A stretch of 37,134 nt of DNA from a virus. Lineage: Duplodnaviria > Heunggongvirae > Uroviricota > Caudoviricetes. The stretch is from IMG/VR virus record IMGVR_UViG_3300010429_001251, one strand, 5' to 3'. The notes beneath the pieces were generated by a model. It was not told where the DNA came from. It worked only from the letters and a program-made list of their open reading frames with translations, and searched no databases. Every line of letters starts with the position of its first letter. Positions within the stretch are counted from its first letter, which is position 1. Shown here in pieces: positions 4,780-20,629 of this stretch. The position numbers and the translations under genes were made by a program.

Positions 4780-5064
4780 ATGGGTAACGAAAAAATAAAA
4801 AAGAGTATTACTTTGAATAGGCTACAAACGGATAAGCTAATTGAACTAAGTAATTATTTAGGAATTAGTGAAAATGCTGTTGTTGCTGTTGCCCTGAATA
4901 CCTTTCATAAAGAAGTATTTAGCGGCGCAAAAATTTTTAATGTGAGCCATAATACTAAAGTGGATGTTGATGCGGTTAAAGATGCAATTACTAAAAGCAT
5001 GATGAATTATAATCCTATGTATTATAAGGAGTCAGGTCCTGATACTGAGCCGAGATTGGACTAA
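4780..5064 (+). CDS. CopG/Arc-like ribbon-helix-helix transcriptional regulator
   Basis: KKSITLNRLQTDKLIELSNYLGISENAVVAVALNTF matches the beta-strand/helix/G-x-S/helix pattern of CopG; first gene after PR. Confidence 0.75.
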   Translation: MGNEKIKKSITLNRLQTDKLIELSNYLGISENAVVAVALNTFHKEVFSGAKIFNVSHNTKVDVDAVKDAITKSMMNYNPMYYKESGPDTEPRLD

Positions 5065-5210
5065 TGAGTGAAGTTAATAAGAAATGCACTAAATTTCCAT
5101 TGGAAGATGTTACTAAATATGATGTGTGGTATTGTCCTAACTTTTCGGGTAGGATAGTGCCAGGAGATAGCTTGTGTGCTCATTGCATACATACTAAGGA
5201 AGAAGAATGA
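5064..5210 (+). CDS. Cys-rich microprotein (48 aa), absent from ORF track
   Basis: MSEVNKKCTKFPLEDVTKYDVWYCPNFSGRIVPGDSLCAHCIHTKEEE; TAATG and ATGA couplings on both sides. Confidence 0.75.
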   Translation: MSEVNKKCTKFPLEDVTKYDVWYCPNFSGRIVPGDSLCAHCIHTKEEE

Positions 5211-5629
5211 ATACTAAGGGTCGTTGTACTTTTAATAATTTTTGTACAGGGTATGGAACTGAAAAATGCTATGAATGTGGTTATTATAGGAGGACTAATA
5301 TGATAACATTTAACTTAACTGAAGAACATATTAAACTTGCACGAAGGATGAATGTGTATTGGGATGACGCTATGTATTTAGGCGCTCCTGCAATTGATAT
5401 GAAAAGACCTTATGGCAATTCAGATGTGTTGGAAGACATTTTAGAGATACTGGATGAAAAGCCGGTAGAGGACGTTGATGAGCGCATTTATACTAAGAAG
5501 CAATATAAAAAGGCGGAGGCTTTGCATAGGGAAATGGAAACCGCCTTGCAGGTAATACTTGCTGCAGGATCCTTTGAGCCCGGAGTTTATACAGCCGAAA
5601 AATATAGAAATAATTGGAGGAAATCGTGA
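5207..5629 (+). CDS. Conserved phage hypothetical protein; strong alternative start at 5300
   Basis: AGGAGG before ATG 5300; motif FNLTEEHIKL...GAPAIDMKRPYGNSDV recalled from phage hypotheticals. Confidence 0.8.
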   Translation: MNTKGRCTFNNFCTGYGTEKCYECGYYRRTNMITFNLTEEHIKLARRMNVYWDDAMYLGAPAIDMKRPYGNSDVLEDILEILDEKPVEDVDERIYTKKQYKKAEALHREMETALQVILAAGSFEPGVYTAEKYRNNWRKS

Positions 5630-5892
5630 GAGAATTTACTTTTGGGATGTCGAGAGCAAGACTTATAAAGACAACAGCTACTTTAGTTTTAGGCACTGAT
5701 ATTTCTAGGCTAGAAATGTTTGCGGATAATTGCGATCAGGTGTATTGTTATTGTCCTCAAGAGAAGATTGGAAAAACTCGAGAAGAAATGGAAAAGGCTT
5801 TGGGAATATATTCCAAAGAAGATTTAATAAAGCTTCTACTTGATATGGTGGATAACGGAGTCGGTGGTCGTAAATGTAGGGAGGTAAGATGA
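5626..5892 (+). CDS. Hypothetical protein
   Basis: GGAGG then GTG at 5626 overlapping the upstream TGA. Confidence 0.7.
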   Translation: MREFTFGMSRARLIKTTATLVLGTDISRLEMFADNCDQVYCYCPQEKIGKTREEMEKALGIYSKEDLIKLLLDMVDNGVGGRKCREVR

Positions 5893-6317
5893 ATCCTACA
5901 TATATATTAGAAGTAATGGCTGAGATGGCTGATAATAACAATCGTTATATCCAGTATTTGGAAAAACATATAGCCAGTCTTACCCGCCAAAAAATTGCTT
6001 TGGAAGAGAAGTTTAATGAACTGCTGCACGAAAAAGCTAAAGGCGTTACTGCAAAACAGATACTTGAAAAGACAGAAGAAGAATTAAAGGCAACTATCGA
6101 GACAAAGCCTAAAAGGAAATATGAACGGAGTGGAAAATTTAAAAAAATGCTCAAATATTTAGGAATAGTTTTAATACTTATAATAGTAAGCGTTTTATGC
6201 CTCCTTATACTCTGGAAGTGGGCGGGGTTATGCCAAAAATATGAATGGCTATTTCCCCTAACCCCGTTCGCTATTTTAATACTTACGTTTGCGTATCTAA
6301 TTTATAGTTGGTTGTAG
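5889..6317 (+). CDS. Coiled-coil protein with two C-terminal TM helices
   Basis: ATGA overlap, RBS GGAGGT; heptad-like N-terminal half, hydrophobic C-terminal half from MLKYLG. Confidence 0.7.
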   Translation: MNPTYILEVMAEMADNNNRYIQYLEKHIASLTRQKIALEEKFNELLHEKAKGVTAKQILEKTEEELKATIETKPKRKYERSGKFKKMLKYLGIVLILIIVSVLCLLILWKWAGLCQKYEWLFPLTPFAILILTFAYLIYSWL

Positions 6318-6327
6318 GAGAAGAAAA

Positions 6328-6525
6328 ATGATTGATAGAGATGGAAAAGTAATTGTTGTAAGATGTGATAATTGCTCTAATGAATTTAGTGAATCTCATA
6401 TCTTCGATTTTAGTGAGGCTATGAGGGCGGCTAAAGAGGAGGGCTTTATTAATCGTCAAGTAGACGGGGAGTGGAAGAATTTTTGTTGTAAGGAATGTTT
6501 TGAGGAGTATAAAAGTGGACACTAA
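6328..6525 (+). CDS. Zn-ribbon-like small protein
   Basis: CDNC...CCKEC; RBS AGGAGA. Confidence 0.8.
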   Translation: MIDRDGKVIVVRCDNCSNEFSESHIFDFSEAMRAAKEEGFINRQVDGEWKNFCCKECFEEYKSGH

Positions 6526-6826
6526 TATAAGTAGATTCCAAAAGCTAAAAACAGGGTTAATGATTATTGATGGCGCCTTAATGGGTTATGATTTTAAAGA
6601 TCCATTTATGTGTACTAATAGTGAGAATTGTGACGACCTATTAATCCTAATAGACGACTGTGATGAGTATACGGAAGAACAAATTGAAGAGACAGAGAAA
6701 AAGGTAAAACAAGCCTTTGAATCTCATTTTAGGCAATTAAAGGAGTTAGGCTTTAGGTATATATCAGGACCGGATGAGCTTAACGATGATGGGTATTTAT
6801 TAGGCTTTGGGTTTGAGTTAAGTTAG
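6515..6826 (+). CDS. Hypothetical acidic protein
   Basis: GAGGAG then GTG at 6515. Confidence 0.75.
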   Translation: MDTNISRFQKLKTGLMIIDGALMGYDFKDPFMCTNSENCDDLLILIDDCDEYTEEQIEETEKKVKQAFESHFRQLKELGFRYISGPDELNDDGYLLGFGFELS

Positions 6827-6834
6827 GAGGACTA

Positions 6835-7047
6835 ATGAGTATATTAATTGATGATTTAATAGATTTAAATCCTAAAGAAAATATGGTTGAGCTGGTAACT
6901 ATTAGTAGATGGGGTAGACAGGTTGGCTGGTATATTGCAAAACCTCTGCCTTTTTATAGCATCGGTGCCTTAATTGGAAGAATAGGAGATGCCTGGAGAG
7001 TGTTAAACGATAAATCACGAGCTTATCATTATAAGGAGGACGAGTGA
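6835..7047 (+). CDS. Hypothetical protein (70 aa)
   Basis: RBS AGGAGG. Confidence 0.8.
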   Translation: MSILIDDLIDLNPKENMVELVTISRWGRQVGWYIAKPLPFYSIGALIGRIGDAWRVLNDKSRAYHYKEDE

Positions 7048-7319
7048 GAATATTTAAAGCTATTTTAAAATTTAATAAAGACAATGAGGTTTACGACGCC
7101 GAAAATTTAGAGTATATGGATTTAAGTGAGGCATCACATACCTTTAAAAAACTAGTCCATACAAAAGAGATAAACGTTCCTGCTAATAAAAGACTTACAT
7201 CAATGCACGATGTAACTTTTATGGATGGGGAGAGATATAAATTTGTGTTAGGAAGAGATAACCTACGAGGTTTTAAATGTACTAAAGAATTCTTTCAAGA
7301 ATTTATGCTAATGTATTAG
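7044..7319 (+). CDS. Hypothetical protein (91 aa)
   Basis: GTGA overlap, RBS AAGGAGG. Confidence 0.8.
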   Translation: MRIFKAILKFNKDNEVYDAENLEYMDLSEASHTFKKLVHTKEINVPANKRLTSMHDVTFMDGERYKFVLGRDNLRGFKCTKEFFQEFMLMY

Positions 7320-7327
7320 GAGGTAAT

Positions 7328-7558
7328 ATGAACGAATTTTTAAAATGTGGCGCTAAAAGAAAATTTATAGTCTTAAATTTAGAACATATTTTTGAATATA
7401 TGGGCTATAACTTGTTAACCTTAAAACGTATCTTAAAAGAATATTATGAGATGAGCCTTCCTAAAGAAAAAGATCATGAATATTTAGTAATAAATACAGA
7501 TGAGCCTTATATTGACGAAGTTATAGAGGTATTAAAGAAACACGGGCATTGGGGTTAG
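7328..7558 (+). CDS. Phage hypothetical protein (76 aa)
   Basis: RBS AGGAGGT; C-terminal YLVINTDEPY...KKHGHWG motif recalled from phage hypotheticals. Confidence 0.8.
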   Translation: MNEFLKCGAKRKFIVLNLEHIFEYMGYNLLTLKRILKEYYEMSLPKEKDHEYLVINTDEPYIDEVIEVLKKHGHWG

Positions 7559-7559
7559 T

Positions 7560-7802
7560 ATGAAGTTAGGTGGAATACGATATACGCAGGCTAAAAAGAC
7601 TCCTCACAGACACGCTATCATGAATGGGGAAGAGTGGAAATTAGTTTTTGGAGAAAATACTAGAAAAGTAGAATTTATATTCAAAGCCAATGTTAACATG
7701 TTGGATAAGGTTTTAACAGCTGCTCAGTATGATAAAGTAAAAAAAGAATTTGGGCAAAAATTTATAAATTATATAAAGGTATACAAGGATGAAGGAAATT
7801 AA
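7560..7802 (+). CDS. Hypothetical protein (80 aa)
   Basis: ORF track, tight packing. Confidence 0.7.
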   Translation: MKLGGIRYTQAKKTPHRHAIMNGEEWKLVFGENTRKVEFIFKANVNMLDKVLTAAQYDKVKKEFGQKFINYIKVYKDEGN

Positions 7803-7998
7803 AAAAGAAGTTAAAACTTTTCAAATAAGTCTTGAATGTGATTGCGGTGGAGCCATAGTTTTTGATTCCAACAATGGGGTTAAGGATTCGAGATCAGACA
7901 AACCTACTTTTAAGCATATTTGCCTTAAATGCACTCGTGTAGAGTATTTAGAAAATATTTACCCTAGAGTTCATTACGAATATAAAGGAAAGAAATAA
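7789..7998 (+). CDS. Zn-ribbon-like small protein
   Basis: CDCGG...CLKC. Confidence 0.75.
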   Translation: MKEIKKEVKTFQISLECDCGGAIVFDSNNGVKDSRSDKPTFKHICLKCTRVEYLENIYPRVHYEYKGKK

Positions 7999-8219
7999 TG
8001 AATAACTGTTATAGTAGTAAAGATAGTATCCTACTGGCTAAATTTAAAGAGGTTCAGAGAGCTTTTGTGGAAGAGCATTTAAATATGTGTACAGAAGAAC
8101 AGATAAAATTCTTTCACGAAAAAGTCTTTCCCAAAGGCATAAACACAGACGAACAGTTTATAAATGCAATTAAAATAATTGAGAGGACTATACATAATAA
8201 TAAAAAAGGAGAAAACTAA
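7998..8219 (+). CDS. Hypothetical protein (73 aa)
   Basis: TAATG coupling, RBS AAAGGA. Confidence 0.75.
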   Translation: MNNCYSSKDSILLAKFKEVQRAFVEEHLNMCTEEQIKFFHEKVFPKGINTDEQFINAIKIIERTIHNNKKGEN

Positions 8220-8419
8220 TGCCTTATAATGAAGATATACTAATAAATTTAACTAATGCTTTAACCCTTTGCCAACAAAGATTTGAATTTTATGTTGAAC
8301 AGCATTCTAAAAAAGGTAAAGTAAAAAAGATGCTAAACAATCAACTTTATGCTGAAATGTGTAAAAAGGCTTTAAGAGGAGAAAAGGTAAGTGTTGAGGA
8401 TGTTAAGACACAAGATTAA
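8219..8419 (+). CDS. Hypothetical protein (66 aa)
   Basis: TAATG coupling, RBS AAAGGAG. Confidence 0.75.
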   Translation: MPYNEDILINLTNALTLCQQRFEFYVEQHSKKGKVKKMLNNQLYAEMCKKALRGEKVSVEDVKTQD

Positions 8420-8579
8420 ATTTGGAAAGTATTATGTAGAGGTGTGGTACTTATTAGCTCTTATTTTTGTTATAATTAGTATTATCCAAGACATTTGGTG
8501 CTTATTCTTTTTTGTGTTAGGATTATGGATAAATATGACAGTGAGGTTAATACAAAAGAAATGGAATTTACGAGAATAA
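8400..8579 (+). CDS. Small membrane protein (2 predicted TM helices)
   Basis: VWYLLALIFVIISII and IWCLFFFVLGLWI; start uncertain (8391 or 8400). Confidence 0.6.
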   Translation: MLRHKIKFGKYYVEVWYLLALIFVIISIIQDIWCLFFFVLGLWINMTVRLIQKKWNLRE

Positions 8580-8857
8580 TTGATACCGAGAAATTTCCAT
8601 ATACAGGCTTTGAAAGTGAGTTTAAATTAGACCCATCTACATTATATATACATCAAGTACAGGGCGGTTATATTATATTTTTTATATGTCCTTGCGGATG
8701 CGGTGAGGTAAGTAGACTATACCACGGTGTTATTGGACCTCCTCACGAATGGGATTTAGATCGTGAAACTATAACTATTAGCCCTTCAATAAATAATCCT
8801 AAAGAATGTAAAGCACATTATTTTATTAGAAATGGAAAAGTGGAGTGGTGCGGATGA
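8561..8857 (+). CDS. DUF6527-like protein, copy 1 (start 8525 or 8561)
   Basis: CPCGCG...W...ITISPSI...CKAHYFIRNGKVEWC. Confidence 0.75.
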   Translation: MEFTRIIDTEKFPYTGFESEFKLDPSTLYIHQVQGGYIIFFICPCGCGEVSRLYHGVIGPPHEWDLDRETITISPSINNPKECKAHYFIRNGKVEWCG

Positions 8858-9144
8858 TATACGAATTAAAACCCGAATTTATGCCAGAGTTTATGCCTAA
8901 AAGGGAAGAGTTAAAAGAAGGAATTCTGTATATTTCTTTGAAGTATGGTACAACTGCTCATTTATGCCCTTGCGGTTGTGGGCATAAGGTAAATGTTCCT
9001 ATAAATCTCGATGGTAAAGAAGGCTGGTGGGATTACACAGAAGAAAACGGAGAGGTTTCATTATCCCCGTCAATAGGTAATTTCCAAATACCTTGTAAAT
9101 CCCATTATTTTATAACTAAGAATAAAGTAGTATGGTGCCCATAA
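8854..9144 (+). CDS. DUF6527-like protein, copy 2
   Basis: EGILYISLKYGTTAHLCPCGCGHKV...VSLSPSIGNFQIPCKSHYFITKNKVVWC, the typical DUF6527 pattern; ATGA overlap. Confidence 0.8.
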   Translation: MIYELKPEFMPEFMPKREELKEGILYISLKYGTTAHLCPCGCGHKVNVPINLDGKEGWWDYTEENGEVSLSPSIGNFQIPCKSHYFITKNKVVWCP

Positions 9145-9371
9145 TGAGAACTATAACTTTTCAATACGAATCTACAATATTCATAGATAGCCCGTTTCCC
9201 GCAGATAACAAAGCCCGTGTTTTAGTTGACGGGCATGAACTTCCTTCTTTTATTTATCAAAATCAATTTATAATGGAAAAGTTAGCTCCTAATTTAAAAG
9301 CTATAGGAGAAAATGCTAAAGTCGTTATTGATAAGATAAAAGAAGTAACTATTGTACAGCCCGTAGAATGA
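9144..9371 (+). CDS. Hypothetical protein (75 aa)
   Basis: TAATG coupling at 9142-9146. Confidence 0.7.
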   Translation: MRTITFQYESTIFIDSPFPADNKARVLVDGHELPSFIYQNQFIMEKLAPNLKAIGENAKVVIDKIKEVTIVQPVE

Positions 9372-9443
9372 GCAGGATTGGTGTAATTGGCAGCATGACG
9401 GTCTCCAAAACCGTTGGTAGAGGTTCAAATCCTTTATCCTGTG
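9372..9443 (+). tRNA. trnW: tRNA-Trp(CCA), 3' CCA not encoded
   Basis: Cloverleaf: acceptor GCAGGAT/ATCCTGT, D-loop AATTGGCA, anticodon arm ACGGT-CTCCAAA-ACCGT (CCA at 9405-9407), T arm AGAGG-TTCAAAT-CCTTT, discriminator G. Confidence 0.92.
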
Positions 9444-9452
9444 TATAATAAA

Positions 9453-9477
9453 AAACTATAGGGTTGTCCTATAGTTT
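9453..9477. terminator. Terminator-like hairpin after the tRNA
   Basis: AAACTATAGG-gttgt-CCTATAGTTT. Confidence 0.7.
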
Positions 9478-9529
9478 AAATCTTGTTGTTGAAAAGGAGT
9501 TATAACATTTATATAATACTTCATATATA

Positions 9530-9557
9530 TTGACATTTCAATATTTTATTTTATACT
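9530..9557 (+). promoter_or_regulatory. Sigma70-like promoter upstream of the ORF-free structured region
   Basis: TTGACA-16 nt-TATACT. Confidence 0.65.
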
Positions 9558-9609
9558 GATTATTACATTAGTTTCTCCTAATTAATTATTTTACTAATTT
9601 TTTAAAAAT

Positions 9610-9925
9610 TGGCGCATGTGCGTGAAAACATTGACAGCTGGGAATAGACTAGTAGGGGTTGACTGTACCTCTTTTAACAAAAATTAGGATGATAACCTTA
9701 CACACATAAAGCCCTTTATGCTGTAACAATAATCCAAGAGAATCGGGTACTCCTACAAACTCTTGTAAAACAAAGTCCTAGTACAAGTCAACGAACTAGA
9801 TAACCTTGTAAAAACTTGTTCAAACGCTGAGGACATTATATAGATAGTTTAATGAAAACAGTCCTTAAACAAGACAGATGTGGGTAAAAGCCTACTCTAT
9901 ATAAAGCCAAAGCACCTGTGATTAC
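9610..9925 (+). ncRNA. Candidate large structured non-coding RNA, family unassigned
   Basis: No ORF; nested helices: GTTGACT-GTAC(9658-9668)/GTAC-A-AGTCAAC(9781-9792), TAGGAT/GTCCTA, TTACA..CATAAA/TTTATG..TGTAA, CAAGAG/CTCTTG, CTTGTT/AACAAG, TGAGGAC/GTCCTTA, ACAG..GTG/CACCTGT. Confidence 0.65.
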
Positions 9926-9966
9926 CTTTTTACTTTATTCATTTGACCTTCATTTTATTTGGTACT

Positions 9967-10004
9967 GAGAAGATAGGGATAAAACCCTATCTTCTTATAT
10001 TGTT
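9967..10004 (+). terminator. Intrinsic terminator closing the ncRNA unit
   Basis: GAAGATAGGG(9969-9978)-ataaaa-CCCTATCTTC(9985-9994) then TTATATTGTT. Confidence 0.7.
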
Positions 10005-10028
10005 TAATCTTGTTTTATATGTTATATT
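10000..10028 (+). promoter_or_regulatory. Promoter for the morphogenesis operon
   Basis: TTGTTT-17 nt-TATATT with TGn extended -10; closely resembles PL2. Confidence 0.55.
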
Positions 10029-10062
10029 GAGAGTGGGATGTGATTCTAATATGGGAGTTTTT

Positions 10063-10188
10063 ATGAAAATTCAATCTGTTATGTCTTTTAAGGGTAAAGC
10101 TGTTAATTGCCAACCTTTGAAGGGATTAAATGAAACAGTGATAAGACCTCTTCCGCCTAAAGATAAATTTGTGAAAAGTAATGCCTGA
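10063..10188 (+). CDS. 41-aa hypothetical protein before TerL
   Basis: GGAG then ATG 10063; overlaps the TerL start by 8 nt. Confidence 0.5.
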   Translation: MKIQSVMSFKGKAVNCQPLKGLNETVIRPLPPKDKFVKSNA

Positions 10189-11917
10189 AACTAAATATAC
10201 TATTGATTATCTAATTGAAGGTAGAAAGCAGTTATGGCTAACTACTGGAAATTTAGAGTCTGATAAAGAGTATATTAAAATTACAACTAAAGAAGTAACT
10301 AATAACCCCGAACTTTTACAAGAATTAGTCCAATACCCTGAAAAATTTATAGAACTGTTTTTCTACATTGTTAACAAAAGAAAGAAAACAGTTCCTTTCT
10401 TCTTGAATACTGTTCAACAGCACGTAATAGATAGACTTAATAAGGGAATGGAAGATTATAAGGCGGGTCGTAGAAATAGTCTTAAATTTAGATGTTTAAA
10501 GGGACGACAGCAGGGTGTTACCGCTTTAGTTACAGCCTATCAGTTAGCCTGCACTATCTTACATACTAACTTCTCAGGCTATACAATGGCTGATAACGGA
10601 GACAATGCGAGGGTTATATTAAACGATAAAGGTAAGTATCCTTATAGATACCTACCTAATATTTTTAAGCCCCACGAGAAATTTAACTCGGCGAATGAGA
10701 TATTTTTCGATAAGTTAAATAGTTCTTGGCGTATTGCATCTGCAGAATCAGGAGAAGCAGGTCGTTCCAGAACTTTAAACTTCTTTCATGGATCTGAAGT
10801 AGGATTTTGGGATAATTATTTAGGAATAATGGCAGCGTTAGATCCTGCTCTCACCGAAGACGCTATAATATTTGAAGAGTCCACCGCAAATGGGCATAAT
10901 GATTTTCATAGTAACTGGTTTGACGAAGATACAGATTATGAAAATATATTCCTAGTTTGGTGGTTAAGTTCTGAGTATAGAGCTAAGTTTGAGTCTGTTG
11001 AAAAAGAGGAAGAGTTTAAAAAAGCTGTTATCGAAGAGCTTACAGATTTCCATAAAAAATTAAATTTATTACGTACTAAGGAAAATTTAGATTGGAATCA
11101 GCTTTACTGGTATTGGGGTAAAAAGAAAGCTCTTAAAGATAAATTAGAGCAAGAGTTTCCATGTACTGAAGAAGAGGCATTCATTCACTCTGGTAAACCT
11201 TATTTTGATATTCAAGTAATACAGCAAAAAATGATTGAGTTAAAAGAATTTAAACCCTTAGAAATAAGATTAAATGGGGATGTAGTTATAGTCGAAAAAC
11301 CTATACCAGATGAAAAGTATTACATCGGAGCTGACGTAGCAGAGGGGTTAGAAAACGAAGATTACTCTCAGGCGTACATAATAAAGGGGTCTACCGCAGA
11401 AACAGTCGCTTGGATTAGAGGACATTTTAGTACAGATATGTTTGGAAATATTTTGGTGAAATATGCTAAAGAATACAATAATGCGTTTATTGCGCCGGAA
11501 AATAATAACCACGGGCATGCCGTTCTTAATACTATATACATTTATAATAGCTATAAGCATATCTACATTCAGCACCAATTTAATAGAACTCATGACAAAA
11601 AAGAAAAAGGTAAAAAATTAGGCTGGACAACTACAGAGGCTTCAAAATACTTAATGTTGGACGAATTAGATTCAGCTTTACGTGACGGAGATTTTCAAAT
11701 ATACGATGTTGAGTTTTATAAAGAGTGTGCTAAAGTATTAAGAGACGAAAAAGGTAAAGTTGCTATAAATGGATTAGATAGAGTTGCCGCTGCTGCTATT
11801 GCGTGGCAAATGAGAAAATATTATAATAAAAGAGATCCGGTTGCGAGTTATTATCAACAACTTGCTGAAGAACGTCAAAAAAGATTAGAAGAATCTGGTT
11901 TACGGGTCGTAAGTTAA
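10181..11917 (+). CDS. terL: Terminase large subunit
   Basis: Walker A LKGRQQGVT, Walker B FFHGSEVGFW, coupling motif FEESTANG, nuclease YYIGADVAEG, APENNNHG, GWTTT...SK. Confidence 0.95.
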   Translation: MPETKYTIDYLIEGRKQLWLTTGNLESDKEYIKITTKEVTNNPELLQELVQYPEKFIELFFYIVNKRKKTVPFFLNTVQQHVIDRLNKGMEDYKAGRRNSLKFRCLKGRQQGVTALVTAYQLACTILHTNFSGYTMADNGDNARVILNDKGKYPYRYLPNIFKPHEKFNSANEIFFDKLNSSWRIASAESGEAGRSRTLNFFHGSEVGFWDNYLGIMAALDPALTEDAIIFEESTANGHNDFHSNWFDEDTDYENIFLVWWLSSEYRAKFESVEKEEEFKKAVIEELTDFHKKLNLLRTKENLDWNQLYWYWGKKKALKDKLEQEFPCTEEEAFIHSGKPYFDIQVIQQKMIELKEFKPLEIRLNGDVVIVEKPIPDEKYYIGADVAEGLENEDYSQAYIIKGSTAETVAWIRGHFSTDMFGNILVKYAKEYNNAFIAPENNNHGHAVLNTIYIYNSYKHIYIQHQFNRTHDKKEKGKKLGWTTTEASKYLMLDELDSALRDGDFQIYDVEFYKECAKVLRDEKGKVAINGLDRVAAAAIAWQMRKYYNKRDPVASYYQQLAEERQKRLEESGLRVVS

Positions 11918-11929
11918 GAGGACAAAAAT

Positions 11930-12289
11930 ATGTTTTTTCGAGGACACACCCATGAAGATCTTCTAGTATTGAAGATCATGGACGAAATCAACACTATGCT
12001 CAATAACTGCCCTTTTAAGTATTTATTATTTTCGATAGGTATTGAGATAGAAGGACAAATTAAACCCTATAACTACATCATCAAAGAGGGTAAACTATAC
12101 TTAGACACAACTAACGCTATCAGCAATAAAGATTTAAACTTATTTAAGTATTGTTTTCATTTTAACGGCAAACCTAAAACATTTAGAGATTTAGAACATT
12201 ATGAATTTTTCTCAGAATATTTAGGAATGATAAAAAAAGCTTTTGAGGATAGTTTAAAGATAAAGAAAGAGTTGTATAGAATACGATGA
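11930..12289 (+). CDS. Hypothetical protein between terL and portal
   Basis: RBS AGAGGACA; ATGA overlap with portal. Confidence 0.75.
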   Translation: MFFRGHTHEDLLVLKIMDEINTMLNNCPFKYLLFSIGIEIEGQIKPYNYIIKEGKLYLDTTNAISNKDLNLFKYCFHFNGKPKTFRDLEHYEFFSEYLGMIKKAFEDSLKIKKELYRIR

Positions 12290-14580
12290 ATAAAACAGCA
12301 AAACCGTTATCAACAGCTATATCTACTACATATAGAGCAAAGCCTGACTTTGGCGGCGTATTTCCTGCAGCGGCTCCTTTTCCCAATAACGAACCTGAAA
12401 GGAAACAACCTAGAGCCTATACTGTAAGATCAGCTCAGAACATGGTTTTAGCTCCAAGGCAAGAAATGCCTAATCTAACTCCTTTTGATATATTAGATTT
12501 TGTAGCTAGGAGTACAGATGTAATTCAGATCGCAGAGAATATTCTTCTTAATCAGATTTCAGGTAGAAGATGGGATATACTTCCTGCAGATCCTGAGGAT
12601 AAAAGTGATTATAAAAAAGAAGAAAAAATATTAAAAGATTTTTTCAAAAAACCCGACAAAGAAAGAACATACAGTCAGTGGATCCGAAAAGCCCTTAAAA
12701 ATATGACACGTTATGATGCTTTTACGCTGTATAAACGTAAAAATAAAAAAGGCGGTTTATATGGATTAAATATAATAGATGGATCTACAATTAAAATAGT
12801 AGTTGATTCTAATGGAAATAAACCTACTCCCCCATACCCCGCCTTTCAACAGATAATATACGGCACTGTTAGGGGTAGTTGGAGTTTAGAGGAACTTGTA
12901 TACGCCCCTATGAGCGAGGAGCTAAAAGGAAATTATGGTGTAGGTCCTGTAGAAAGAATAATACAGGCTACTATGAAGTATTTACGTAAACAAAACTTTG
13001 ATTATGCCTATTATAAAGAAGGAGCCTATCCTGACGGTGGTTTATACGCTCTTAGACCTAATGACCAATCTCAATGGACTGCCGATGATATTATAAAATT
13101 TAATGCTTTTTGGATGGAAGATATGGCGGCTTATGAAAACCGTCAATCTTTAAAATTTGTACCAGATGGGCAGTTACATAGAACAAAAGAGTATAAATGG
13201 GATACATTACAAGAAGAATGGTTTGGAAGATTAGTTTGCGCCTCTATGGGCATTGATTTCCAAACATTTAATAAACAGGTTAATAGATCAACTGCAGAGG
13301 TTGATGACAGAAAACAAACAGATGTCGGTCTTAAACCGTATATTAGGCATCTTGAAGAGATACTTACAGAAATTATTCAAGTTGACTTTGGATTTGAAAC
13401 TTTAGCGTTTAAAATAATTGATGAAAAATTAGAAGATCAACAAGCTAAAGTTAATAAAAACGATAATTATCTTAAAAACGGTATATATAATAGAAATGAA
13501 ATTAGAAGAGAAGAGGGAAAAGAGCCTATTGTTAACGGAGATATCTATACTGTACAAGTAGGTAATGCTATAATCCCTCTAACTGATATAGACAAAGTTA
13601 TTACAACTGACAACAAGGAAGATGGAGCAGATCCTGAAGCTGCAAACAATGTAAAAGGAGCTAATATCAAAGCTAAAGATGTAAAAATGGACGCAGCTAA
13701 TAGACCTGTTATAACTGATAAGAAAACTTCTAAAAAGGAAACTAAAAGTAAAGAAGTTAAAAAAGCATTAGCTCATTATCAAAGTTTTTTAATTAAACGC
13801 TTTAAAGAAGGTAGATCATTAAAAGGTTATAACAACGAGAATGTTTCTGACGAGTTTATAGTTAAGGTAGAATCCTCAAATATTAGAAATATTGGTCAGA
13901 TAGTTGATATTTTTAAAGCAGAGGATGATAAAGAAGAGTACGCCTCTTTTTTAGCGTATTTAACTGAATACTTTAAAGATTTAAAAGGCGATTATGTAAA
14001 ATTTATAGAAGAAGCGTATAAAAAGGCTGATATAGAGTTTATTTTGGGCTTTTACTTCATAAATAAAGAAGATTTTGGTAAAAAACTAAAAAAATACTTA
14101 GAAAGTTCTTACGATAAAGGGCAAAGAGAAGGACTTTCTGAATTGAATAGGGTATTAGAGCAGAAAAATAAACCTTCTGTAGATATAAAACCTGAAATTA
14201 AAAATCAAGATACCTATGTTACTGATTTAACAAGTCAATTAGAACAAAGTACACAAACTATGTTAACTAATTCCTTCTCATCCGCTCTTGAAAAAGGATT
14301 AGACTGGGAATCTTATAGAAATGAGATTGAAAATTCTTACCCATTCTCAGCCATTAGAGCAAAAGTTATTGCTGACGTTGAAGGATTAAAACAGTATAAT
14401 GAAGGTGCCACCTTAACTTGGATTAAATCAGAATTAATAGATAAAGTTTATGTTTATGATGGTGACGGATGTCCTATATGCGCCGATTTAAATGGAACTA
14501 TACAAACACTTGAATGGGCTCATAATAATCCAATTCAACATCCAAACTGTGTTAGACAATTTACACCTTTAGTAGAATAA
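12286..14580 (+). CDS. Portal protein fused to a C-terminal MuF/SPP1 gp7-like minor head domain
   Basis: Portal motifs (IDGSTIK, YGVGPVE, NEIRREEGKEPIVNGD) then MuF-type ending CPICADLNG...HPNCVRQFTP. Confidence 0.88.
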   Translation: MNKTAKPLSTAISTTYRAKPDFGGVFPAAAPFPNNEPERKQPRAYTVRSAQNMVLAPRQEMPNLTPFDILDFVARSTDVIQIAENILLNQISGRRWDILPADPEDKSDYKKEEKILKDFFKKPDKERTYSQWIRKALKNMTRYDAFTLYKRKNKKGGLYGLNIIDGSTIKIVVDSNGNKPTPPYPAFQQIIYGTVRGSWSLEELVYAPMSEELKGNYGVGPVERIIQATMKYLRKQNFDYAYYKEGAYPDGGLYALRPNDQSQWTADDIIKFNAFWMEDMAAYENRQSLKFVPDGQLHRTKEYKWDTLQEEWFGRLVCASMGIDFQTFNKQVNRSTAEVDDRKQTDVGLKPYIRHLEEILTEIIQVDFGFETLAFKIIDEKLEDQQAKVNKNDNYLKNGIYNRNEIRREEGKEPIVNGDIYTVQVGNAIIPLTDIDKVITTDNKEDGADPEAANNVKGANIKAKDVKMDAANRPVITDKKTSKKETKSKEVKKALAHYQSFLIKRFKEGRSLKGYNNENVSDEFIVKVESSNIRNIGQIVDIFKAEDDKEEYASFLAYLTEYFKDLKGDYVKFIEEAYKKADIEFILGFYFINKEDFGKKLKKYLESSYDKGQREGLSELNRVLEQKNKPSVDIKPEIKNQDTYVTDLTSQLEQSTQTMLTNSFSSALEKGLDWESYRNEIENSYPFSAIRAKVIADVEGLKQYNEGATLTWIKSELIDKVYVYDGDGCPICADLNGTIQTLEWAHNNPIQHPNCVRQFTPLVE

Positions 14581-20258: not shown

Positions 20259-20629
20259 TGGCTTTTTTCACCAATGCTTACATAAAATTAGAAAGAAAAG
20301 TTTCTTCGGGGTATTCGGATCTAGGAGAAACTAACAGCTCTTTTGGATTAGTTAAAGATAAAATACCAGTTCAGATTATTAAAAAAGAATTTGCAGATGA
20401 TAACTCTCAATTATACTATGTAGAAGCGGGGCAAGTTGCTCCTCCCCTATATATAGTTACCTGTAATTCTTATTTTGATTTTAGACGTGAAGATAAAATA
20501 ACAGTAACTTCTACCCCTACAAACTCGCTTGTTTCTGTTGGGGATACTTATACGGTAATAGAGATTCCATATAAAGGAAATTTATTAAAGCATGTAAAAA
20601 TGTTTGCTAAGTTTGGGGTGGAAGAGTGA
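20258..20629 (+). CDS. Putative head closure/stopper protein
   Basis: Synteny; RREDKI...DTYTVIE pattern. Confidence 0.65.
   Translation: MAFFTNAYIKLERKVSSGYSDLGETNSSFGLVKDKIPVQIIKKEFADDNSQLYYVEAGQVAPPLYIVTCNSYFDFRREDKITVTSTPTNSLVSVGDTYTVIEIPYKGNLLKHVKMFAKFGVEE

What the first reader, a model, noticed from the sequence alone, without database searches (positions are those of the whole stretch)
9530..10004. Large, ornate, unclassified structured RNA between the tRNA and terL, where a small terminase gene would often sit
A self-contained unit: promoter 9530-9557, no ORF, terminator 9969-9994. Domain 1 is closed by an 11-bp helix with one bulge (9658-9668/9781-9792, extendable by CTAGT/ACTAG). 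It encloses TAGGAT(9685)/GTCCTA(9775), an 11-bp hairpin 9698-9726 and CAAGAG(9735)/CTCTTG(9760). Domain 2: CTTGTT(9815)/AACAAG(9868) stacked on TGAGGAC(9828)/GTCCTTA(9861), whose loop TTATATAGA(9836-9844) can pair with TCTATATAA(9896-9904) as a pseudoknot into domain 3 (ACAG..GTG 9874-9882/CACCTGT 9913-9919). T-loop-like hairpins (CTGG-GAATAGA-CTAG, GTGGG-TAAAAG-CCTAC) and tRNA adjacency recall GOLLD/ROOL-class phage RNAs, but it is much shorter. No TerS is recognisable in the window, so a packaging-related role analogous to phi29 pRNA is a speculative possibility.
Basis: partly seen in the sequence, partly recalled or inferred. Interest (0 to 1): 0.8.

Follow-up and report, generated by a model that had tools for sequence, protein, structure and literature searches.

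The report
Orphan phage RNA with tRNA-like module
Between a phage tRNA gene and the terminase gene lies a real non-coding transcription unit of about 430 bases. Its only statistically solid structures are a degenerate tRNA-shaped module and the terminator, its body has no relatives anywhere I could search, and so the proposed large ornate RNA and its packaging role remain unsupported.

Summary
The sequence observation holds. The promoter (9530-9557), the absence of any ORF, the terminator (9966-9997) and every quoted motif sit at the stated coordinates.

What the tools add:
It has a CUUAAAC, Leu(UAA)-type loop on an anticodon stem two bases short, and non-canonical D and T loops.
- Domain 1 is the predicted fold, but it is barely better than shuffled sequence (z about -2 on both strands).
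- The body 9605-9965 as a whole is not more stable than shuffles (z -1.3).

No homologue of the body turned up in phage, viral, genome or metagenome data. The closest relatives (TerL 82% and 58-63% identical) keep the promoter, a roughly 25-nt CU-rich 5' motif, a terminator and variable tRNA arrays at this site. Their RNA there is only about 100-150 nt long. Contigs from two RNA libraries match 9642-9947 exactly.

Best reading: a lineage-specific enlargement of a conserved small-RNA/tRNA island, carrying a tRNA-Leu-like relic or mimic. A phi29-pRNA-like packaging role is very unlikely. Covariation cannot be tested with present data. The scan had not noted this RNA on other DNA.

The parts
9372..9443 (+). 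tRNA-Trp(CCA), a canonical phage tRNA with 47% GC
   Evidence: ARAGORN; Rfam tRNA model 61.5 bits; GC content
9453..9477 (.). Hairpin terminator T1, which closes the tRNA-Trp / early transcript
   Evidence: Terminator scan; an 11-bp stem that scores on both strands
9492..9557 (+). Conserved promoter block holding two near-consensus sigma-70 promoters: 9489-9517 (TTGAAA-17-TATAAT) and 9530-9557 (TTGACA-16-TATACT)
   Evidence: Promoter scan, 11 of 12 matches each. This is the only stretch of the intergenic region significantly alignable with relative L002 (score 51 against a shuffle maximum of 34).
9567..9603 (+). 5' end of the RNA. It holds the CU-rich motif TTTCTCCTAATTAATTATTTTAC (9572-9594) inside a weak ATTAG/CTAAT hairpin followed by T6. 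I read it as the counterpart of the relatives' roughly 100-nt small RNA, with a vestigial weak terminator.
   Evidence: Coordinates. Motif similarity to L009 p=0.004, L008 p=0.011, L002 p=0.049. The relatives' units fold as 5' hairpin, then an unpaired or only weakly paired CUCCU motif, then a strong terminator. The local fold here is weak, z -0.4.
9649..9799 (+). 'Domain 1': a predicted four-helix domain consisting of a closing 7+4-bp helix with one bulge, TAGGAT/GTCCTA, the 11-bp hairpin 9698-9726, and CAAGAG/CTCTTG. It has no comparative support.
   Evidence: Three helices scored have pair probabilities 0.67-0.74 in the full transcript and 0.85-0.96 for 9640-9805 alone; the hairpin 9698-9726 appears in the MFE structure. 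z about -2 on both strands. No Rfam match. No homologue.
9836..9904 (+). tRNA-like module. It has a 7-bp acceptor stem (9 bp with an extension), a D arm GUUU/AAAC, a 3-bp anticodon stem with the 9-nt loop CUUAAACAA (Leu-UAA-type CUUAAAC), a T arm GUGGG-UAAAAG-CCUAC, and discriminator A. GC is 30%.
   Evidence: Rfam tRNA model 36.5 bits (gathering score 29), E 6e-6. ARAGORN calls it only at relaxed thresholds. z -3.8. Acceptor and T-arm probabilities 0.98 and 1.00.
9905..9965 (+). Trailer with no significant structure
   Evidence: z +0.3 for 9910-9965
9966..9997 (+). Strong intrinsic terminator T2: 13-bp stem, 6-nt loop, U-rich tail
   Evidence: Terminator scan; pair probability 1.00
10000..10028 (+). 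Second promoter P2 in front of the late operon: TTGTTT-17-TGT-TATATT, with an extended -10 and overlapping TATTGTT/TCTTGTT heptads. Equivalent extended -10 sites lie in front of terL in L002 and L009.
   Evidence: Read from the sequence. It falls below the threshold of the consensus scan.
10063..10188 (+). 41-aa ORF with a GGGAG Shine-Dalgarno sequence, overlapping the terL start by 8 nt
   Evidence: called as a gene in public assemblies
10181..11917 (+). Large terminase (TerL), the first long gene of the structural operon
   Evidence: phrog_2 and phrog_24361; followed by the portal gene 12286-14580

Best explanation
The region is a lineage-specific, independently transcribed non-coding unit inside a fast-evolving tRNA and small-RNA island that this phage clade keeps between its early genes and terL.

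A near-consensus host-type promoter (9530-9557) starts an RNA whose first roughly 35 nt carry a CU-rich, anti-Shine-Dalgarno-like motif. The same motif is found in the roughly 100-nt, terminator-ended small RNAs at the same site in several of the relatives.

In this phage the weak hairpin plus U6 after that motif is read through. The transcript continues for about 360 further bases to the strong terminator at 9966-9997. That extra body is cargo peculiar to this phage. It consists of an AT-rich segment that may fold into a four-helix domain (unproven), and a tRNA-derived module shaped like a class-I tRNA-Leu(UAA). The module's anticodon stem is two bases short and its D and T loops are non-canonical, so it is a relic or a mimic and not a decoding tRNA.

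Shown: the unit boundaries, the lack of coding capacity, the tRNA-like module, the conservation of promoter and 5' motif, the absence of the body in relatives, and the presence of the sequence in RNA libraries.

Inferred: that the conserved 5' part acts as a trans-acting small RNA, that the tRNA-like module is cut by RNase P/Z like other tRNA-operon transcripts, and that most of the body is dispensable.
For: - Unit boundaries and lack of ORFs.
- tRNA model hit of 36.5 bits against a gathering score of 29, E 6e-6, at 9838-9903. It is also called by relaxed ARAGORN.
- Many tRNA core features are visible in the sequence: U8, A14, A15/U48, G10-C25, A21, U33, G53-C61, U54/A58, A73.
- This module and the terminator are the only parts that beat shuffles clearly.
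- UUA is the commonest Leu codon of the phage (320 of 552), so a Leu(UAA) tRNA ancestor makes sense.
- Relatives carry changing tRNA sets at this site:
  - L002: Trp.
  - L006: Asn, Asp, Met, Thr.
  - L007: Leu, Gln, Tyr, Thr, with one sigma-70-like promoter in front of tRNA-Thr, followed by a CU-motif trailer and a terminator.
  - L008: a CUA suppressor and Tyr.
- Only the promoter block aligns with the 82%-TerL relative. The 5' motif is shared with L009, L008 and L002 (p 0.004-0.05).
- The relatives' units are short and fold like small RNAs (z -2.6 to -6.1).
- Contigs from two metatranscriptomic libraries of two studies are identical to 9715-9947 (233 nt, word depth 31) and 9642-9825 (184 nt, depth 4.2).
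Against: - The stems of the tRNA-like module are all perfectly paired. This is more than expected for an old pseudogene and hints at selection on shape.
- Domain 1 is a coherent nested fold with high ensemble probability, so a functional structure cannot be excluded.
- No target for the CU-rich motif could be established. The best candidate pairing, with the start region of gene 6835-7047, is not beyond seed-preserving shuffles (7 of 40) and is not kept in the relative.
- RNA-library contigs cannot show strand, ends or level, and DNA carry-over is not formally excluded.
- The rest of the 101-kb genome could not be read.
Confidence: 0.5

Rival explanations
1. The whole RNA of about 430 nt is a genuinely new large structured RNA, comparable in kind to GOLLD or ROOL. 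Domain 1 and the tRNA-shaped domain would act together, for example as a tRNA mimic or decoy, or as a scaffold for a phage or host protein.
For: - A coherent nested fold is predicted for domain 1.
- The tRNA-like stems are perfect, with z -3.8.
- The + strand folds better than the - strand over the whole unit.
- It is present in RNA-library contigs at a word depth of 31.
- According to earlier notes, the same genome invests in Ro60-like/Y-RNA-like RNAs with tRNA-like modules.
Against: - The body is not more stable than shuffles (z -1.29), and domain 1 scores equally on both strands.
- No homologue in any collection.
- Absent from phages with 82% identical TerL.
- GC content is not raised above other intergenic DNA.
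- No Ro60 handle motif.
Confidence: 0.15
2. It is the terminated leader of the late operon, as with lambda PR'-6S RNA-tR' (this comparison rests on my own knowledge). A strong constitutive promoter makes a short RNA that stops at T2 until a phage antiterminator lets RNA polymerase read into terL. The sequence of the leader body would then be irrelevant.
For: - A strong promoter, a non-coding leader and a strong terminator lie directly upstream of the structural operon and in the same orientation.
- The same layout occurs in relatives, with a leader of free length and sequence.
- A conserved motif lies just downstream of the start site.
- An abundant leader RNA would fit the RNA-library contigs.
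Against: - An extended -10 promoter with operator-like heptads lies between T2 and terL, here and in relatives. The late operon therefore need not depend on read-through.
- No Q-like or other antiterminator was recognised among the early genes.
Confidence: 0.15
3. 9838-9903 is a working but unconventional tRNA-Leu(UAA) gene with a long leader. It would supply the phage's commonest Leu codon, or escape host anticodon nucleases by means of its altered anticodon arm.
For: - Score above the tRNA gathering threshold.
- A CUUAAAC loop with U33 and A37, discriminator A73, and intact acceptor, D and T stems (sequence).
- UUA accounts for 58% of Leu codons.
- Relative L007 has a Leu-anticodon tRNA of only 76 nt, too short for a typical long variable arm.
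- Phage tRNAs with altered anticodon loops that evade host nucleases are documented (PMC10264068, PMC11555353; title and abstract seen).
Against: - A 3-bp anticodon stem with a 9-nt loop (or a 5-nt loop).
- A 6-nt T loop without UUC, and no G18G19.
- 30% GC against 47% for the phage's tRNA-Trp.
- Not called by default ARAGORN.
- In the ensemble, the D and anticodon arms are replaced by one long hairpin.
Confidence: 0.07
4. It is a packaging RNA that replaces or assists TerS, analogous to phi29 pRNA.
For: - It sits where more distant relatives have a small terminase gene. L016 has a GP3_package TerS overlapping terL.
- No TerS was recognised in the window or in the 50-kb relative.
Against: - Relatives with 82% and 58-63% identical TerL lack the body.
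- The TerL is an ordinary terminase (phrog_2), not a phi29-type ATPase.
- No pRNA match.
- TerS proteins are too diverse for non-detection to count, and about 54 kb of the genome was not searched.
Confidence: 0.02

Closest known systems
Phage T4 RNA C and RNA D, stable small RNAs transcribed from the tRNA gene region (PMC3014915)
   Same: Non-coding RNAs of unknown role, encoded in a phage tRNA region.
   Different: The T4 RNAs are much shorter (by my recollection about 120-140 nt). No sequence relation was tested or found. Here the RNA has its own promoter and terminator and is about 430 nt long.
Non-canonical phage tRNAs and tRNA-like candidates (PMC10264068, PMC11555353, PMC10690425)
   Same: A tRNA-shaped element in a phage tRNA island, with an altered anticodon arm.
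   Different: The described cases keep a working 7-nt anticodon loop. This one has a stem two bases short, a 6-nt T loop and no GG in the D loop, and it is embedded in a longer transcript.
GOLLD and ROOL large phage-associated RNAs (Rfam)
   Same: A large non-coding RNA next to tRNA genes in a phage.
   Different: No match to any Rfam model even at E<=10. It is shorter, has no family and has no covariation support.
Lambda PR'-6S RNA-tR' late leader (own knowledge)
   Same: A strong promoter, a short non-coding RNA and a terminator immediately in front of the terminase/structural operon. The body is free to vary.
   Different: A second promoter lies behind the terminator, and no antiterminator was recognised.
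phi29 pRNA
   Same: A non-coding RNA near packaging genes.
   Different: No model match, a different kind of packaging ATPase, and no conservation among phages sharing this TerL.
YrlA-type Y RNAs and the Ro60-handle RNAs noted earlier in this genome
   Same: A phage RNA that contains a tRNA-like module.
   Different: The module is in normal, not permuted, order. There is no ACAGCAA handle, no Rfam YrlA match, and no adjacent Ro60-like gene.

Membership tests
tRNA (Rfam RF00005) | Cloverleaf scoring at or above the family gathering score | tested here: met
   36.5 bits against a gathering score of 29, E 6e-6, 9838-9903. Seen only with permissive filters; missed in the gathering-mode scan of the window and in the larger permissive search of L023.
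tRNA (Rfam RF00005) | 5-bp anticodon stem with a 7-nt loop | tested here: not met
   The arm is 15 nt instead of 17: GUC / CUUAAACAA / GAC (alignment).
tRNA (Rfam RF00005) | Canonical 7-nt T loop (UUCRANY) and G18G19 in the D loop | tested here: not met
   The T loop is UAAAAG (6 nt) and the D loop is AAUGA. Default ARAGORN does not call it.
GOLLD / ROOL | Match to the family covariance model | tested here: not met
   No such hit at E<=10 in focused scans.
phi29 pRNA | Match to the pRNA model, and association with a phi29-type packaging ATPase | tested here: not met
   No hit. TerL is phrog_2 terminase.
phi29 pRNA (functional analogue) | Conserved in phages that share the packaging motor | tested here: not met
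   The body is absent from L002 (TerL 82%), L009, L006, L007 and L008.
Ro60-partner / Y RNA (YrlA, handle RNAs) | Closing stem with the ACAGCAA-type handle, or a YrlA model match | tested here: not met
   No TACAGCAA or ACAGCAAA on the + strand within one mismatch in 9400-10100. No Rfam hit.
Group I / II intron remnant | Intron core model match and an interrupted host gene | tested here: not met
   No Rfam hit. No split ORF or decayed ORF remnant.
Lambda-type late leader (promoter-leader-terminator with antitermination) | Promoter, non-coding leader and intrinsic terminator directly upstream of the late operon, in the same orientation | tested here: met
   the same layout occurs in relatives.
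Lambda-type late leader (promoter-leader-terminator with antitermination) | A phage antiterminator, and no other late promoter | tested here: inconclusive
   None was recognised among the early ORFs. An extended -10 promoter lies behind T2.
Trans-acting small RNA with a CU-rich seed | Conserved accessible seed plus a complementary target | tested here: inconclusive
   The motif is shared and lies unpaired or only weakly paired in relatives. The best target is not significant and is not conserved.

The most novel reading that the evidence does not exclude
The roughly 430-nt RNA is a new kind of abundant phage RNA that couples a folded 5' domain to a tRNA-Leu(UAA)-shaped mimic. The mimic would have an intact acceptor/T-arm minihelix and a disabled anticodon arm. 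It would act as a decoy, a sponge or a processing handle against host tRNA-directed defence or for phage RNA-handling proteins. It would have arisen recently from a tRNA gene in the island upstream of terL.
Probability: 0.12. Interest if true: 0.65.

Novelty: new member of a known kind. Interest (0 to 1): 0.3.

Why it matters
If the body were a functional fold, it would be a new large phage RNA with a built-in tRNA mimic, in a phage already noted for unusual RNA biology.

As it stands, the value is more modest:
- It documents a variable tRNA/small-RNA island in the place where related phages keep terS.
- It corrects a plausible-looking pseudoknot model into a tRNA-derived module.
- It shows that thermodynamic ornateness in AT-rich DNA is not evidence of structure.

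The conserved promoter-motif-terminator small-RNA locus in front of terL may be worth a study of its own.

Tried and rejected
- **Homologue hunts for the body, all empty.**
  - blastn against 50,697 phage records found only tRNA-Trp.
  - Exact scans of IMG/VR with four segments found nothing.
  - An 18-mer scan of GTDB genomes gave four chance hits; the one I read lies in ordinary coding-like sequence, none aligns with window 5001-14000 and none overlaps a tRNA.
  - The relative's 50-kb genome gave nothing.
  - There is no paralogue in 47 kb of this genome.
- **TerL-based locus searches.** They gave only 2 viral loci, 1 metagenome locus and 0 genome loci. The protein search found no relative between 82% and 100% identity, so no alignment for covariation could be built.
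- **Motif scan.** An IMG/VR scan for the 5' motif hit four loci. In three near-identical contigs the motif is the reverse complement of an ordinary ribosome-binding site; the fourth hit was not characterised.
- **Target of the 5' motif.** A 17-bp duplex with the start region of gene 6835-7047 (-22 kcal/mol) looked attractive. It is matched by 7 of 40 seed-preserving shuffles and is not kept for the orthologue in L002. A 13-nt match at 20322 lies inside a gene.
- **Ro60-handle idea from earlier notes.** The motif is absent.
- **tRNA-like module as a recent copy of a relative's tRNA.** No alignment beats shuffles.
- **Decayed ORF remnant.** None found.
- **Flanks in the RNA runs.** The RNA runs show no contig over the flanking genes.
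- **One script timed out** and was rerun on a smaller scale.

Full report
**Setting.** The window is part of a phage contig of about 101 kb, recovered from anaerobic-digester metagenomes. The sequence is identical in NCBI GCA_022711095.1 and in a JGI assembly. Small early genes, two DUF6527 genes and a 79-aa gene run on the + strand up to tRNA-Trp(CCA) at 9372-9443. TerL (10181-11917; phrog_2) and the portal gene follow. The finding covers the 740-nt gap between them.

**Observation.**
- The consensus scan finds TTGACA-16-TATACT at 9530-9557. It also finds a second near-consensus promoter at 9489-9517, a hairpin terminator after the tRNA (9453-9477) and a 13-bp terminator at 9966-9997.
- All six frames are broken by many stops.
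- Rfam at gathering thresholds sees only tRNA-Trp.
- So a self-contained non-coding unit of about 430 nt (roughly 9564-9997) is real.

**Structure.**
- The whole unit folds better than shuffles on the + strand (z -3.3) and not on the - strand (z -0.9).
- Dissection shows where this signal comes from:
  - the body 9605-9965: z -1.29;
  - domain 1 (9645-9800): about -2 on both strands;
  - the trailer: +0.3;
  - 9830-9910: -3.8;
  - the remainder of the signal is the terminator.
Domain 1 is therefore a fair prediction, but a statistically weak one.
- The domain 2 and domain 3 helices have probability 0.00, whereas TTATATAGA/TCTATATAA forms with probability 0.98 as an ordinary nested stem.

**The tRNA-like module.**
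- A focused Rfam scan matches the tRNA model at 9838-9903 with 36.5 bits (gathering score 29, E 6e-6). ARAGORN calls it only at relaxed thresholds.
- The 'pseudoknot' is its acceptor stem, and the hairpin GTGGG-TAAAAG-CCTAC is its T arm.
- It keeps many tRNA core features: U8, A14, A15/U48, G10-C25, A21, U33, G53-C61, U54/A58 and A73.
- Its anticodon arm is two bases short (GUC/CUUAAACAA/GAC), its T loop has six bases without UUC, and its D loop lacks GG. Its GC content is 30%, against 47% for tRNA-Trp.
- The loop CUUAAAC is that of a Leu(UAA) tRNA, and UUA is the phage's main Leu codon.
- It is not a recent copy of any tRNA seen in relatives.
- I read it as a disabled tRNA-Leu-like gene or a tRNA mimic.

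**Relatives.**
- TerL relatives were collected from IMG/VR, JGI, ENA, Logan and NCBI. In the clade with 58-82% identical TerL, the site upstream of terL holds a changing set of tRNAs:
  - L002: Trp.
  - L006: Asn, Asp, Met, Thr.
  - L007: Leu, Gln, Tyr, Thr.
  - L008: a CUA suppressor and Tyr.
  - L009: no tRNA in the 3 kb held upstream of terL.
- Each also has a sigma-70-like promoter that drives a non-coding RNA of about 100-150 nt ended by a strong terminator.
- Between the window and the closest relative, only the promoter block aligns significantly.
- Within the transcripts, a CU-rich motif of about 25 nt (TTTCTCCTAATTAATTATTTTAC, 9572-9594) is shared with L009, L008 and L002 (p 0.004-0.05). 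In relatives it lies unpaired or only weakly paired in front of the terminator. In the window it lies in a weak hairpin followed by T6.
- The 360-nt body has no counterpart in these relatives or anywhere else I could search. No relative between 82% and 100% TerL identity exists in the protein collection, so covariation cannot be tested.

**Expression.** One contig from each of two metatranscriptomic libraries from different studies matches the stretch without a difference. One is 233 nt long (9715-9947, word depth 31) and the other is 184 nt long (9642-9825, depth 4.2). DNA runs from digesters hold scattered low-depth pieces of the whole stretch. Contigs cannot give strand, ends or level, and DNA carry-over cannot be excluded. 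I treat this as a hint that the RNA is made and is stable.

**Packaging idea.**
- More distant TerL relatives have a small terminase where the island lies here. L016 has a GP3_package gene overlapping terL, and L015 has a 150-aa ORF.
- No TerS was recognised in the window or in the 50-kb relative.
However, TerS proteins are very diverse, about 54 kb of the genome could not be read, and phages with near-identical motors lack the RNA body. A pRNA-like role is therefore very unlikely.

**Other readings.**
- A lambda-like late leader fits the layout and the free body. It is weakened by an extended -10 promoter with TATTGTT heptads behind the terminator, here and in relatives, and by the lack of a recognisable antiterminator.
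- A trans-acting small RNA fits the conserved motif, which is the exact antisense of a typical ribosome-binding site, but no target held up.
- The Ro60-handle signature noted elsewhere in this genome is absent.
- No intron, GOLLD, ROOL, pRNA, tmRNA or Y RNA model matches.

**Verdict.** This is a real, probably expressed, orphan non-coding unit. Its conserved parts are the promoter, a short 5' motif and the terminator. Its large body is peculiar to this phage and contains a tRNA-derived module. The ornate fold and the packaging role are not supported, and a functional fold is not excluded.

Noticed in passing
L002:2818-2952; L009:2770-2907; L007:324-566; L008:420-530; L006:2619-2797: In every TerL relative of this clade for which the upstream DNA was held, a sigma-70-like promoter drives a non-coding RNA of about 100-150 nt ended by a strong terminator, just upstream of terL. 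Most carry an unpaired or weakly paired CUCCU-type (anti-Shine-Dalgarno) motif. There is no Rfam match (tested for L002, L003 and L006).
   Followed up: partly
window 10063-10188; L006:2861-3004; L009:2295-2447: Tiny basic ORFs of 41-50 aa share a C/YQPL motif. In the window and in L006 they overlap the terL start, which suggests translational coupling. The similarity is weak.
   Followed up: partly
L008:256-327: A relative carries a tRNA with the anticodon CUA (an amber suppressor type; ARAGORN labels it Pyl) next to tRNA-Tyr. Its terL translates normally under table 11.
   Followed up: no
L006:240-1100: About 900 nt without ORFs, packed with repeats of GGTTTAAACC / GGGTTTACA-like words, upstream of the tRNA array. 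It could be an iteron-type origin or a protein-binding array.
   Followed up: no
L016:2600-3004; L015:2385-2837: Phages with 47-48% identical TerL have a small terminase (GP3_package) or a 150-aa ORF directly upstream of terL. The window's clade has the tRNA/small-RNA island there instead, and no recognisable TerS.
   Followed up: partly
L023:10735-10950 (about 85-300 nt left of the window start): A 71-aa protein with a Sigma70_r4 hit, a possible phage transcription regulator.
   Followed up: no
window 6805-6840 versus 9566-9585: The 5' end of the RNA can form a 17-bp duplex with one bulge across the Shine-Dalgarno sequence and AUG of gene 6835-7047. It is not significant against seed-preserving shuffles and is not conserved in L002.
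   Followed up: yes
window 8495-9144: Two adjacent DUF6527 (BubE-like) genes, confirmed by Pfam (E 1e-17 and 1e-21).
   Followed up: partly
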